This document shows positions 28,901 through 31,900 of a DNA stretch of 64,000 nucleotides, piece by piece. The stretch is from assembly GCF_041248615.1 (NCBI RefSeq), contig NZ_CP158426.1; one strand, written 5' to 3'. The DNA is from Escherichia coli (GTDB lineage Bacteria; Pseudomonadota; Gammaproteobacteria; Enterobacterales; Enterobacteriaceae). The position numbers are program-made. The first letter of the stretch is position 1; each line of letters opens with the position of its first letter.

Positions 28901-31900
28901 GGGGCGGCCTCAGAAATTAATCTGCTTTTTTCGATGTTCATTTTCAGTCTCCGTTAGGCGGCGTTAAACGCGTCCGGGTAGAGTTTCAGAATGTCGGCAA
29001 TTTCCTGCTGAGAAAGTCCGTTGTGATCATTTATGTTCGCAAGATGGTTAACATGAGTGATCACTTTCAGAACATCACCACGGCAGGAGAAACGGTAGCG
29101 AAGGTGTGTTCCGATACCATCAGGATTCTTTTCGTCGATACGCTCCAGAGTGATTCCAAGCTGGCGTTCTAACTCTGTTGCATAGTTACGACCAGAAGAC
29201 AGACGGCAGTAGCGAAGAATGTCATTTTCTGTCCATCCCTCTATACCAGTACGCAGCATATAGACTCGGGCACGATGCTTTTTCGGTGTGCGCTTTGGTG
29301 CTTGAAGGGATTTTGTAAGGGGCGTAATATCAGATACGCGAATATCTGAATTAGCCGCCTGTAATGGGCGGTTTTTCTTTTCCATCAGGCCACCTTCCCG
29401 CGGCGTTCTGCCAGCCAGTTATTAATTTCCACCGCATCAAACGCAGTCACGTTATCTGTTAGCTTCACTGGGCGTGGAAGAGTGCCATTTTTAACCCATC
29501 TATCAATAGTAGGCAGTGAAACACCTAGCAATTCCGGCATGCGAAAGCGACGGATGTATCCAGTTGTTGGGATAGCTGATGATGCTGGCTTGTGTGCTGT
29601 CATATCTCTAGTAACCTCTCTGATAGCTCATGAAGTTACTTAAAGTTTAGTGGTTGCCCATACAGTATTTCTATTAAGACTAGAATCTATTGAAAGAAAT
29701 TATAAATCTATTGAAAAAATACCGATCCACTGAAAGATTGCAAATGCAGGTGGGATAATTATTTTCTTTATTTTCAATTAGTTACCAGTTTAAAAAATCA
29801 TTGTTTTATCAAAGAGTTATATCTTTCATCGTCATTCATCATGTTTTTACATTTCTTTTTATCTTTTATTATTCAATTGGTTGAGTCGGTTTATAATGGC
29901 TCATGATGGCTTAAAATGGCTAATGATAGCTGGCGTATCTTTTAGAGATGGGGTGATTACAGATGAACTAAGCCGAACAGATATAGCAATGGCTAGGCAT
30001 AGAATTATCTATGCTGGTGGAGATGGGTAAACAGGTAATGCCCCGCCATTGCTTTGGAGGGGCGTGAAAAGTGATTAGTCGAGATCGTGGACAGCTAATA
30101 AAGCCCGTGAGATTTTTTCTAGGAATGTGGCTTTTGCTATTCCTTTATGGGATATCCCTTCATCCTTGATTAAGGTTTCTATGTCACGGTATATAGCTGT
30201 GCGATTAGGTTTCCCATTTTGGATGTAGGAAGATGAGCCTGATTTTTTTATCAGCAGATGTACTATCAACCCCATCATTTTCATTGTCCCGTTTTCCTCA
30301 TCCTGCTTTCTATGCTGCCCACGTCCGCTGCGGTTGGTTTCTTTGATGTAGTTTACTAACTGGAGTCCTCCAAGGTTTCGGGCTTTTTCTTCCCAGCCCT
30401 TGGTGCCACGCAAATCATCAATCGCTTCTGATATTTTCTGAACAATTATTTCTGGTGTATTTGTGTCAATAAATGGGTAAGAAGCTAAGAAAATATCAAG
30501 GGCATGGCAAGGCTCGTCTTTACTAGTTTTTTCACCTCTGTACACCTTGATAGCTCTGGCAAGATGAGTTCTGACAAAATCGACATATTCGAAATTTTCC
30601 TCAGGCACATCGCTAATGCGCATAGATGGGTTTAGGCCAGCCAAGGCCACAGCCATTTCATGAGGGGTAATCGATACAGATGAACAAAGCCGTTCGATTG
30701 GCGATTTTCTCAAGATGTTGTTCACATTTGCCTCCGGGCTTTATCGAATGGCGTTACGTTGTAGTCTTTCCCGCTTTCCAGTGCCACCAGCAGATCAGCC
30801 CACTGTGCCAGCGCAGCTTTACGCTCATCAAAATACTGATGGCGGTTATAAATCCCCTCCACACCCTTAATGCGATGATTGAGGCATCGTTCCGCTACGA
30901 CAGGATCAACACCCAATGCTGCTAAATGAGTACGTGCGGTACGCCGGAAGTCGTGAATCGTGAAATTAGGCACATCCGGCATTTCGGCGCGAACCTTAGC
31001 CAGTGCTACGGGTAAAGTGCTTTCCTGAATATGTGGGATCATTCTGTTTTGCATCTTCCTGGCTGGAAGCACCCATGCGCTATTACATGAAAAGGTGTGT
31101 AGCTCTCTCAACCATTCAACGGCTGGGGAAGGTAGAGGTATATCAATAGGGTCTCCGTTTTTGCTGCGTTCTTCCGGCAAATGCCATACCGCACCATCTA
31201 AATCAAACTCTTCCCATCGTGCGGCGCATAACTCCATCTTACGAACGCATAGTGCCAGCAATAGCTTAAATGTCAGTTCGTTCTGGCGGCTGAATCCTTT
31301 TGCGGTGCGCATAGCTTCGAATAGCCTGATAAGCTCATCGCGAGTTAGCCAACGGTCGCGGGAAACCTCTTTACCACCAGCATCAGATACTTCAAACGCT
31401 GAACAAGGGTTTATCTCCAGAGCGTGGCGTTTTATCCCATAGTCAAAGATACGGCGTGTCCAGCGTAATACATCTGTTGCTATCGTTGGTGCTCCTCGGT
31501 CAACGATACCTTTCAACATGTCGTCAATGTGGCGTGGCTTAACGTCCTCCACCTTCATATGCCCAATGCAGGGGTTAATATCCTTATCAATTCTCCGGCG
31601 AAGGATATCGGGATGTTTCCATCTTGGAAGTATCTGGCGCTCGAAGTATTCGGCGGCCAGATCTGAAACGCGCATGGCGTTTTTCTCAGCCTCCATTTTT
31701 GCCAGTGCTTCAGCTTTTCGTTCCTGTTTCTCTGCTGCTACGTCATAGCCAAGAGCAACTCTGGCTGACAGCTCTTTTGCTGTTTCTCTGGCTTTTGATA
31801 GTGACAGTTCGGAGTAAGAGCCTATAACCATAGCCCGCTGCTTTCCTGCGAGCTTATAGCGGAATCGCCAGAACGGGACTGTGTAGTTTTTTGGGTAGCA

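What the first reader, a model, noticed from the sequence alone, without database searches (positions are those of the whole stretch)
29604..30074. AT-rich 470-bp control region with direct repeats upstream of alpA
A strongly AT-rich intergenic stretch containing repeated AATGGCT(C/A)ATGATGG-type units and TCTATTGAAA repeats precedes the leftward alpA/antirepressor/primase transcription unit. It is the likely master promoter/operator of the island and a candidate site for silencing by nucleoid proteins and derepression by helper phage.
Basis: seen in the sequence. Interest (0 to 1): 0.35.

Follow-up and report, generated by a model that had tools for sequence, protein, structure and literature searches.

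The report
Control region of a satellite's alpA switch
This AT-rich spacer is very probably the on/off control region for alpA, the master activator gene of a phage-parasitic island in E. coli; it is an ordinary kind of element, but comparing relatives shows its working parts for the first time.

Summary
Window 29604-30074 is exactly the spacer between a 216-aa ORF (co-transcribed with the integrase) and alpA. It is 34% G+C overall, with a 23% core, and both repeat types beat every shuffle.

The island is an EcCIMP1-like Gram-negative PICI (phage satellite) inserted next to yicC. Its int-orf216-spacer-alpA block is unrelated in sequence to the characterised islands.

Divergent relatives from Klebsiella, Buttiauxella, Salmonella and metagenomes resolve three parts:
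- **Proximal module.** Four phased direct repeats (TTTCAATAGAT type; spacing 19/21/16 bp) run into a weak -35 and a positionally invariant TAnnnT -10.
- **Leader stem-loop.** It spans from the -10 to 3 nt before the AUG, holds the ribosome-binding site, and is kept with compensatory changes in about 30 alpA loci.
- **Distal half.** Fast-evolving 10-bp tandem arrays, plus a conserved IHF-like site.

The repeat array occurs in 13 of 13 loci with orf216 and in none of 41 without it, even where AlpA is about 90% identical. AlpA is therefore unlikely to be its binder.

The replication iterons lie elsewhere, so this is not the origin. No conserved ORF or known RNA family is present.

Promoter activity, helper induction and H-NS silencing remain untested for this sequence. 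They are inferred from non-homologous PICI alpA promoters.

The parts
29604..30074 (-). Whole orf216-alpA spacer (471 bp; 34% G+C)
   Evidence: ORF map and composition. At least 99% identical in 109 of 5426 complete E. coli genomes, with nothing annotated under it.
30040..30063 (-). Stem-loop just 3' of the orf216 stop. Terminator-like, but with no U-run.
   Evidence: -15.1 kcal/mol, z = -2.8. A hairpin of different sequence sits at the same place in L006, L008 and L010. The terminator scan did not call it.
29997..30014 (.). Perfect 7-bp palindrome GCATAGA-TAAT-TCTATGC. It overlaps the only consensus-scan promoter hit on the alpA strand (TTTACC-16-GATAAT, 30004-30031).
   Evidence: z = -5.6. 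Not conserved in relatives. Role unknown.
29889..29928 (-). Tandem array of four 10-bp units (TATCATTAGC / CATTTTAAGC / CATCATGAGC / CATTATAAAC).
   Evidence: TRF period 10 and 20. 0 of 2000 shuffles. Relatives carry 10-bp arrays of other unit sequences and varying copy number at the same place. The units are not found elsewhere in the island.
29754..29874 (.). AT-rich core (23% G+C)
   Evidence: Poorly conserved apart from one block around 29800-29830.
29807..29819 (+). IHF-consensus match TATCAAAGAGTTA (WATCAANNNNTTR) inside the one conserved block of the core
   Evidence: Read from the sequence. The block GAAAGATnTAAnnnnTTGAtAAA aligns in WIN, L006, L009 and L011. The consensus is perfect in WIN and L006 and has 1-3 mismatches in L009 and L011. 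Inference only.
29725..29737 (-). Direct repeat R1 (TCTTTCAGTGGAT)
29706..29718 (-). Direct repeat R2 (TTTTTCAATAGAT)
   Evidence: PWM 21.9 bits
29685..29697 (-). Direct repeat R3 (TCTTTCAATAGAT)
   Evidence: PWM 23.1 bits
29667..29680 (-). Degenerate repeat R4 (GTCTTAATAGAAAT). Its 3' half (29667-29672, AGAAAT; TGGAAT in relatives) is the -35-like hexamer.
29644..29649 (-). Predicted -10 hexamer TAAACT. The T, A and final T are invariant in 8 relatives, 17-18 bp after R4. Predicted start site near 29636-29638.
   Evidence: Invariant columns T145, A146 and T150 in A2. It is the only positionally conserved sigma-70 candidate. The consensus scan did not call it, so it is weak.
29606..29645 (-). 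Leader stem-loop. 5' arm 29632-29645 (overlaps the last 2 nt of the -10). Loop with GAGCTATCA at 29621-29629. SD GAGAGG at 29615-29620. 3' arm 29606-29618, ending 3 nt before the AUG.
   Evidence: -14.6 kcal/mol, z = -3.9. Predicted in 33 of 36 distinct alpA leaders. Covariation: 81% of cells paired against 73% shuffled and 28-43% slid; 17 double changes against 5.5; 0 of 500 shuffles reach it.
29385..29603 (-). alpA (72 aa; winged-helix, excisionase-type regulator)
   Evidence: Pfam PF05930 above cutoff; phrog_66. Its stop overlaps the start of the next ORF.
30075..30725 (-). orf216 (phrog_30524, function unknown). Overlaps the int stop by 4 nt. Always linked to the R1-R4 array.
   Evidence: No domain or fold match.
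30722..31990 (-). Tyrosine integrase (422 aa), next to yicC

Best explanation
The spacer is the cis-regulatory region of alpA, the master activator gene of an EcCIMP1-like phage-inducible chromosomal island (PICI) integrated beside yicC.

**Promoter (inferred).** Transcription of alpA, and of the operon that runs on to the primase, starts about 33-35 nt before the AUG. The sigma-70 promoter there is intrinsically weak (AGAAAT-17-TAAACT) and needs help.

**Operator array (inferred).** Four same-strand direct repeats (consensus TTTYAAWRGAW, each preceded by a T-run) sit at about two-helical-turn spacing. The last one replaces a proper -35. This layout is typical of a multi-site docking platform for a regulator that touches RNA polymerase at the -35, or that occludes it. 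The binder is not identified. Comparative data argue against AlpA. They leave three candidates: the product of the always-linked orf216, a helper-phage protein, or a host factor.

**Leader stem-loop (shown by covariation).** A conserved stem-loop runs from the -10 to just before the AUG and contains the ribosome-binding site.

**Foldback insulation (inferred).** The predicted start site lies inside the 5' arm. The full stem can therefore form only on transcripts that read in from the upstream int-orf216 operon. That would keep leak-through from being translated into AlpA, which in related islands activates its own promoter. Transcripts started at the alpA promoter would lack much of the 5' arm and be translatable.

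**Distal half.** It holds 10-bp tandem arrays, an AT-rich core and an IHF-like site. It is probably an accessory architectural or protein-loading zone; its role is not established.
For: **Context**
- int, orf216, alpA, antA, C4/isrK RNAs, icd-like and the TOPRIM/DUF927 primase are all co-oriented.
- The gene set from orf143 onwards matches EcCIMP1, a PICI shown to excise and to be transduced.
- A 12,152-bp circular copy of a related island exists as an assembled 'plasmid'.

**Promoter module**
- The proximal alignment is gapless, with invariant positions at repeat period and at TAnnnT.
- This is the only sigma-70 candidate at a conserved position: top-scoring in L015 and L016, in the top six in L009, L011, L006 and L013, and below the top six in this window.
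- The repeats beat all shuffles.
- Within the island they cluster only here.

**Binder**
- The R array is present in 13 of 13 loci with orf216 and 0 of 41 without.
- The loci without it include ones whose AlpA is 87-92% identical, with an identical helix-turn-helix region.

**Leader stem**
- Covariation statistics.
- Fold z = -3.9 for the full stem, against -0.97 when it is started 7 nt after the -10.
- Opening the SD-to-AUG stretch costs 9-13 kcal/mol on read-through RNA, against 4-6 kcal/mol on RNA started 7 nt after the -10, in 5 of 6 relatives.
- The hairpin after orf216 has no U-run, so read-through is plausible.

**Precedent**
- alpA upstream DNA is helper-inducible and AlpA-boosted in EcCICFT073 and EcCIMP1.
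- Winged-helix proteins of this family bind cooperative arrays spaced about 10 and 20 bp: TorI has five sites.
Against: - There are no transcription data for this sequence. The consensus promoter scan did not call the proposed promoter: it matches 7 of 12 positions, below the scan's threshold of 9.
- The orf216-repeat association could be pure linkage, because int, orf216 and the spacer are inherited as one block.
- orf216 shows no DNA-binding domain or fold. Its AlphaFold model is poor (pLDDT 65).
- The start site is predicted, not mapped. If it lies 5 nt after the -10, the core stem is intact in every transcript, and the stem would be a 5' stabiliser or translational operator instead.
- In one relative (L034) the read-through versus promoter-start energy difference is nil.
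- Outside the orf216 group the -10 was sought near the stem, which makes that support circular.
- The experimentally characterised alpA promoters are not homologous to this one.
Confidence: 0.65

Rival explanations
1. The AT-rich, repeat-bearing spacer is the island's origin of replication: iterons flanking an AT-rich unwinding zone, bound by the primase-helicase.
For: AT-rich core plus tandem and direct repeats. PICI and P4 origins are built this way (established knowledge; for EcCICFT073).
Against: The evident iterons (TGAACCAAC / GTTGGTTCA, 3+3 inverted around an AT-rich gap) lie directly 3' of the primase gene at 22056-22166 and again at 13767-13887. There are none in 29604-30074. The same two clusters occur in the 12-kb circular form. 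The repeat units of the spacer occur nowhere else in the island.
Confidence: 0.04
2. R1-R4 and/or the 10-bp arrays are AlpA's own binding sites, giving the positive autoregulation seen in other PICIs. The spacer would be a self-contained AlpA switch.
For: AlpA activates its own promoter in EcCICFT073 and probably in EcCIMP1. TorI, a family relative, binds five direct repeats at about 20- and 10-bp periods. The unrelated EcCICFT073 int-alpA spacer also carries 10-bp tandem arrays.
Against: Loci whose AlpA is 87-92% identical, with an identical DNA-binding region, have neither R repeats nor 10-bp arrays. What does travel with alpA across module swaps is only the leader: the stem plus the loop CAGCTATCA. 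AGCTATCA recurs twice between yicC and int, where an excisionase would act. That motif is the better AlpA-site candidate.
Confidence: 0.2
3. The leader stem-loop is present on all alpA transcripts. It acts as a 5'-terminal stabiliser, or as a translational operator opened by a protein, a small RNA or temperature. It is not a read-through insulator.
For: The stem is real. If transcription starts 5 nt after the -10, at the G of GTAAC, the 8-bp core stem is retained (TSS+5 rows). The loop sequence is more conserved than the first alpA codons, which suggests sequence-specific recognition.
Against: In most loci the stem extends up to or into the -10-like hexamer (median gap -1 nt). A start 7 nt downstream would remove at least a third of the pairs in 28 of 35 loci (caveat on circularity). 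No Rfam family matches.
Confidence: 0.3
4. The plus strand of the distal half encodes something: a 44-aa protein (29896-30030), or a small RNA started at TATAAT (29892-29897) and antisense to orf216/int.
For: There is an open frame with an ATG, and -10-like hexamers sit inside each repeat unit.
Against: No family hit. No equivalent ORF on either strand in L009 or L016, and only unrelated short ORFs in the others. The sequence is not conserved. The only Rfam hit here is a sub-threshold chance match (CRISPR-DR10, 21 bits against 39).
Confidence: 0.04
5. Apart from the proximal ~170 bp, the spacer is functionally neutral: AT-rich filler whose short tandem repeats arise by slippage. Any silencing is generic H-NS coating.
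For: The distal half does not align among relatives. Array units differ, and copy number varies between near-identical relatives: TCCGTGCCAG x4 against x2, and GTCATAGCGA x1.5 against x3.5.
Against: Every orf216-type relative, and the unrelated EcCICFT073 spacer, has arrays of the same 10-bp period. That period keeps helical phase. One block with an IHF-like site is positionally conserved.
Confidence: 0.3

Closest known systems
alpA promoter regions of the Gram-negative PICIs EcCICFT073 (Fillol-Salom et al. 2018, PMC6092414) and EcCIMP1 (Pick et al. 2025, PMC11773190)
   Same: Same position (between the integrase side and alpA, co-oriented) and the same island type. From orf143 to the primase and ejection-protein genes the gene set matches EcCIMP1. 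The EcCICFT073 spacer also shows 10-bp tandem arrays and an AT-rich middle. Expected behaviour: helper-induced and AlpA-boosted.
   Different: There is no sequence homology. EcCIMP1 AlpA is 34% identical and its 427-bp upstream region is unrelated. An extra gene (orf216) lies between int and alpA. The R1-R4 array and the leader stem are absent from both characterised regions. No cis element was found defined in the papers read.
Satellite P4 late promoters activated by the helper P2 Cox protein through multiple direct 'cox boxes' (own knowledge: Saha et al. 1989)
   Same: A satellite promoter preceded by several same-strand short repeats, to which a small helper-encoded winged-helix protein binds and switches the satellite on.
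   Different: The repeat sequence is not the cox box. The helper and the binder are unknown here. This is a resemblance recalled from memory, not tested.
Tandem-site activator promoters of the OmpR/PhoB type (own knowledge), and the cooperative TorI/Xis arrays (PMC2951348, PMC3509656)
   Same: Three or four direct repeats at about 20-bp period reach the -35 of a promoter with a poor -35. TorI has five cooperative sites at about 20- and 10-bp periods.
   Different: No response regulator or excisionase has been shown to bind here. The sequence matches no consensus I could name.
IS10/IS50 'foldback inhibition' of read-through transcripts (own knowledge: Davis, Simons & Kleckner 1985)
   Same: An inverted repeat sequesters the ribosome-binding region, and the native start site lies within the 5' arm. 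Only externally initiated transcripts would fold.
   Different: Here the start site is predicted, not mapped. The gene is a regulator, not a transposase. The upstream source of read-through would be the element's own int operon.

Membership tests
Gram-negative PICI (phage-inducible chromosomal island) | Integrase at one end, with alpA downstream in the same orientation | tested here: met
   int 30722-31990 (-) and alpA 29385-29603 (-). Zone order is as in PMC10111431.
Gram-negative PICI (phage-inducible chromosomal island) | Primase/replicase gene followed by an iteron-type origin | tested here: met
   TOPRIM/DUF927 protein at 22192-24951, with TGAACCAAC iterons at 22056-22166.
Gram-negative PICI (phage-inducible chromosomal island) | About 10-20 kb in size, with no full set of phage structural or lysis genes | tested here: met
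   About 19 kb between the att-side arm repeats (~13035) and yicC. Only P22-like ejection-protein genes were captured. A 12,152-bp circular relative exists.
Gram-negative PICI (phage-inducible chromosomal island) | Excision, replication and packaging induced by a helper phage | not testable with these tools
   Shown for the related EcCIMP1 with phage Kapi1, not for this island. The circular copy is only suggestive.
PICI alpA promoter (helper-induced, AlpA-autoactivated) | Promoter activity in the DNA immediately upstream of alpA | tested here: inconclusive
   A conserved weak -35/-10 pair is predicted. The consensus scan did not call it. There are no expression data.
PICI alpA promoter (helper-induced, AlpA-autoactivated) | Induction by helper phage and positive autoregulation by AlpA | not testable with these tools
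   Only precedent from non-homologous regions.
PICI alpA promoter (helper-induced, AlpA-autoactivated) | Sequence homology to a characterised alpA promoter region | tested here: not met
   The EcCIMP1 and EcCICFT073 upstream regions are unrelated. There is no match in the phage collection, and the only plasmid-collection match is the island's own circular copy.
Iteron-type replication origin | Contains the repeats that also flank the replicase gene | tested here: not met
   No TGAACCAAC within 29604-30074, even allowing one mismatch.
Intrinsic terminator (hairpin at 30040-30063) | G+C-rich stem followed by a U-run | tested here: not met
   The stem is present, but it is followed by AUUACCUGUUUACCC. 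The scan did not call it.
Any Rfam RNA family | Covariance-model match | tested here: not met
   No hit in 29604-30027 at E <= 1. There is one chance hit at 30028-30070, well below the gathering score.
Foldback inhibition of read-through transcripts (IS10 type) | A stem sequesters the ribosome-binding region | tested here: met
   Prediction plus covariation.
Foldback inhibition of read-through transcripts (IS10 type) | The native start site lies inside the 5' arm, so native transcripts cannot form the stem | tested here: inconclusive
   Predicted from the -10 position. The full stem folds at -14.6 kcal/mol and the truncated one at -6.6 kcal/mol. The start site is not mapped.

The most novel reading that the evidence does not exclude
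PICIs of this clade may carry exchangeable 'induction cassettes': integrase, a variable unknown gene (orf216, or a 295-335-aa ORF) and a matching array of phased direct repeats at the alpA -35. These would be swapped independently of alpA itself. The repeat array would be the docking site either for the still-unidentified helper-phage inducer or for the product of the linked gene. The latter would be the first island-encoded gatekeeper described in Gram-negative PICIs. In addition, the covarying leader stem would be a foldback insulator that keeps integrase-operon read-through from triggering the AlpA feedback loop.
Probability: 0.3. Interest if true: 0.65.

Novelty: new member of a known kind. 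Interest (0 to 1): 0.4.

Why it matters
How helper phages switch on Gram-negative PICIs is still open. The 2018 paper that defined these islands left the inducer 'under study', and the papers I could read define no cis element of any alpA promoter.

The comparative anatomy here gives short, mutable targets:
- R1-R4 at 29667-29737;
- the AGCTATCA motif;
- a 13-bp leader stem.

With these, the question can be approached directly by pull-down, gel-shift and reporter experiments.

The comparison also suggests that induction specificity and AlpA identity are separable modules. This version of the island is in about 2% of complete E. coli genomes, including clinical and poultry isolates.

Tried and rejected
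- **Origin of replication.** Rejected, because the iterons are elsewhere.
- **Small ORF or small RNA on the plus strand.** Not conserved and no family hit.
- **Homology between orf216 and the 295-335-aa ORFs that replace it in other islands.** hhalign probability 0.2%. Those ORFs have no Pfam domain either.
- **R-type arrays in phage genomes.** BLAST of the spacer against the phage collection found no match.
- **Species-representative genome scan.** Only two further loci.
- **P. aeruginosa AlpA antiterminator as a model.** It is a much larger eight-helix protein with its site between -35 and -10. It shares the name, not the architecture.
- **First automatic registration of the stem arms.** It mis-registered six sequences, so the tool count on the MAFFT alignment was used instead.
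- **Direct repeat marking the att core.** Only 12 bp, belonging to the integrase arm-type sites. The exact island ends were not determined.
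Full report
**1. The observation**

The finding's coordinates are exactly the non-coding gap between two minus-strand genes. alpA starts at 29603 and a 216-aa ORF ends at 30075.

The gap is 34% G+C. A 121-bp core (29754-29874) is 23%. The window as a whole is 49%.

- TCTATTGAAA on the plus strand is, on the alpA strand, TTTCAATAGA. It occurs as two exact 11-mers 21 bp apart, a third diverged copy 19 bp further on, and a fourth degenerate copy 16 bp nearer alpA.
- The AATGGCT(C/A)ATGAT units form a 20-bp tandem pair that resolves into about four 10-bp units.

None of 2000 dinucleotide-preserving shuffles reproduced the three-copy phased repeat or the 20-bp tandem.

**2. 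What the surroundings are**

The window is E. coli chromosome. The spacer is at least 99% identical in 109 of 5426 complete E. coli genomes and is never annotated.

It belongs to an island of about 19 kb between the yicG/dinD side and yicC. In order along the minus strand:
- a tyrosine integrase next to yicC;
- orf216, overlapping the integrase stop;
- the spacer;
- alpA;
- a 143-aa ORF;
- an AntA-type antirepressor;
- a DUF4222 protein;
- the isrK and C4 RNAs;
- an Icd-like gene and several small ORFs;
- a TOPRIM/DUF927 primase-helicase;
- an iteron cluster;
- captured P22-like ejection-protein genes.

This is the four-zone plan described for Gram-negative PICIs (PMC10111431). From the 143-aa ORF onward the proteins are those of EcCIMP1, a PICI shown to be excised and transduced by the P22-like phage Kapi1 (PMC11773190).

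One strain carries, besides a chromosomal copy, a 12,152-bp circular 'plasmid' that is a shorter version of the island joined at attP.

The block int-orf216-spacer-alpA is not that of EcCIMP1. That island has no orf216, its AlpA is 34% identical, and its 427-bp upstream DNA is unrelated. Similarity resumes at the alpA stop codon.

**3. Relatives and footprinting**

orf216 (phrog_30524) is a narrow family: 19 clusters, 63-100% identical.

Loci from IMG/VR, Klebsiella michiganensis, Buttiauxella, Salmonella and metagenome assemblies gave seven diverged versions of the spacer, 387-592 bp long.

Only the alpA-proximal ~165 bp aligns, and it aligns without gaps. The invariant positions fall in a TnTnTnAnnnGA pattern repeated at 19, 21 and 16 bp (R1-R4). 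They are followed by an invariant CTG and then by CAnTAnnnT.

The last hexamer is TAAACT, TAGGAT, TACACT, TATCAT or TAGAAT. It keeps only the three positions that matter most in a sigma-70 -10 element. It lies 17-18 bp after the TGGAAT/AGAAAT end of R4.

A position-weight scan puts this pair among the best candidates in six of seven relatives. It is the only candidate at a conserved position. In the window itself it matches 7 of 12 consensus positions, which explains why the simple scan missed it.

I read this as a weak, factor-dependent promoter whose -35 is occupied by the last of four phased binding sites. The predicted start site is near 29636-29638, giving a leader of about 33 nt. This is inferred, not shown.

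**4. Who binds the repeats**

A scan with AlpA relatives returned 49 further loci, 56-99% identical.

A weight matrix built from the repeats finds three or more phased hits in all 13 loci that have orf216. It finds no array in the 41 that lack it. Those 41 include loci whose AlpA is 87-92% identical, with an identical helix-turn-helix and wing.

Within the window the motif clusters only here.

The array therefore travels with the integrase-side block, not with alpA. That argues against AlpA as its binder. The remaining candidates are Orf216, a helper-phage protein, or a host factor.

The association may be no more than linkage. Orf216 gave no domain, no solved-structure relative, a weak model and no fold match.

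In the other islands a different unknown ORF of 295-335 aa occupies the same slot. Several of those islands have their own 19-21-bp direct repeats beside the alpA -35. No homology to orf216 was detectable.

**5. The leader stem-loop**

One piece of DNA does travel with alpA in nearly all 49 loci: an inverted repeat of the form CCCGTAAC-N13-23-GTTACGGG. Its 3' arm starts 12 nt before the AUG, right after the Shine-Dalgarno GGAG.

It is predicted in 33 of 36 distinct leaders.

Counted on a MAFFT alignment of 26 leaders:
- 81% of cells pair, against 73% in shuffles and 28-43% when the partner columns are slid;
- 17 cells carry changes on both sides, against 5.5 expected;
- 0 of 500 shuffles reach the observed values.

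Loop length varies from 13 to 23 nt. That fits an RNA stem better than a dimeric operator.

In the window the stem is 13 bp (29606-29645), at -14.6 kcal/mol and z = -3.9.

Its 5' arm begins inside the -10 hexamer. In the orf216 group the gap between the -10 and the first paired base is -3 to +3 nt.

If transcription starts 7 nt after the -10, only 6 bp remain (-6.6 kcal/mol, z = -1.0). The cost of opening the SD-to-AUG stretch then falls from 9-13 to 4-6 kcal/mol in five of six relatives.

The hairpin after orf216 has no U-run, so read-through from the integrase operon is plausible. I therefore propose that the stem blocks translation of alpA on read-through RNA but not on RNA started at the alpA promoter. 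This is the logic known from IS10 foldback inhibition (own knowledge).

That would protect a positive-feedback switch from leak. AlpA activates its own promoter in EcCICFT073 and apparently in EcCIMP1. The stem is shown; the mechanism is inferred. An always-present stabiliser or translational operator is the main alternative.

**6. The loop motif**

The loop (CAGCTATCA; GAGCTATCA in the window) is better conserved than the first alpA codons.

AGCTATCA occurs five times on the minus strand between 29621 and 32179, and once in the remaining 61 kb.

Two copies lie between yicC and int, where an excisionase would act. They are conserved there in L009 and L011, and with one or two mismatches in L013, L015 and L016.

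This is a candidate AlpA site and would account for autoregulation. It remains a lead, not a result.

**7. The distal half**

Beyond R1 the relatives do not align, but they share a style:
- a hairpin after orf216;
- successive short tandem arrays, all of period 10 bp;
- an AT-rich stretch.

The array units have different sequences, and copy number differs between near-identical relatives. Examples are TCCGTGCCAG x4 against x2, and GTCATAGCGA x1.5 against x3.5.

One block aligns. In the window and in L006 it is a perfect IHF consensus (29807-29819, plus strand).

The unrelated int-alpA spacer of EcCICFT073 has the same feature (RAACAACNNG x6, GACACAAYCC x3). EcCIMP1 does not.

TorI, a solved member of the same winged-helix family, binds five cooperative sites at about 20- and 10-bp periods. 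A protein-loading role is therefore conceivable. Slippage-prone filler that preserves helical phase is equally possible.

**8. Rivals excluded**

- The replication iterons (TGAACCAAC, 3+3 inverted) sit right after the primase gene and again 8 kb away. None lies in the spacer.
- The 44-aa plus-strand ORF has no counterpart in relatives and no family hit.
- No Rfam family matches.

**9. Verdict**

The interpretation as the island's alpA promoter/operator is well supported by comparative anatomy and by precedent from non-homologous PICI promoters. It has not been tested directly. Nucleoid silencing is untested.

The kind of element is known, so this is a new member of that kind. What the analysis adds is a parts list with coordinates, evidence that the operator array is modular and not tied to AlpA, and a covarying leader stem with a testable insulating role.

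Noticed in passing
window 27370-27558 (-): C4 antisense RNA (80 bits, gathering 45) and isrK (63 bits, gathering 50) lie inside a mechanical 342-aa ORF (26911-27939), just upstream of an Icd-like gene. This looks like a P1/P4-type RNA immunity element embedded in the alpA-to-primase operon.
   Followed up: no
window 22056-22166 and 13767-13887: Two clusters of TGAACCAAC iterons, each 3+3 in inverted orientation around an AT-rich gap. One is right after the primase gene and one is about 8 kb away, reminiscent of P4 ori/crr. The same pair occurs in the circular form L002 at 6540-6660 and 8420-8560.
   Followed up: partly
[not shown]
   Followed up: partly
window 29621, 29924, 30548, 32099, 32172 (all - strand): The 8-mer AGCTATCA occurs five times on one strand within 2.6 kb and once in the rest of the 64 kb. 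Two copies flank the terminator-like hairpin between yicC and int and are conserved in relatives. This is a candidate AlpA/excisionase site.
   Followed up: partly
window ~31995-32060 and ~13035-13060: GTGTACAT-type direct repeats (four copies upstream of int; ATTATGTACACC and TTATGTACACGG at the far end) look like integrase arm-type sites at the two island ends.
   Followed up: no
window 29385 / L018 18654: The mosaic junction with EcCIMP1 falls exactly at the alpA stop / orf143 start (TGATGGAAAAGAAAAACCGCCC...). Everything on the integrase side has been swapped as a cassette.
   Followed up: partly
L189 9161-9525 (EcCICFT073, NC_004431.1): The int-alpA spacer of the experimentally studied PICI EcCICFT073 is unrelated in sequence. 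It nonetheless carries two 10-bp tandem arrays (RAACAACNNG x6, GACACAAYCC x3) and an AT-rich middle.
   Followed up: partly
L022 1433-2329, L025 1193-2140, L035 1346-2302, L052 1449-2456 and others: In islands with related AlpA but no orf216, an unknown ORF of 295-335 aa sits between int and alpA. There is no Pfam hit, and one has only a PHROG of unknown function. L025 and L052 have their own 19-21-bp direct repeats next to the alpA promoter.
   Followed up: partly
window 18876-21429 (-): The island carries P22-like DNA-ejection protein genes (DUF2824, an ejection protein, and a lytic transglycosylase further left), as does EcCIMP1. This hints at a P22-like helper.
   Followed up: no
L009 (CACSKA010000004.1): A contig labelled Chryseobacterium sp. 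carries this enterobacterial yicC-linked island module (orf216 83% identical). The record is probably mislabelled or contaminated.
   Followed up: no
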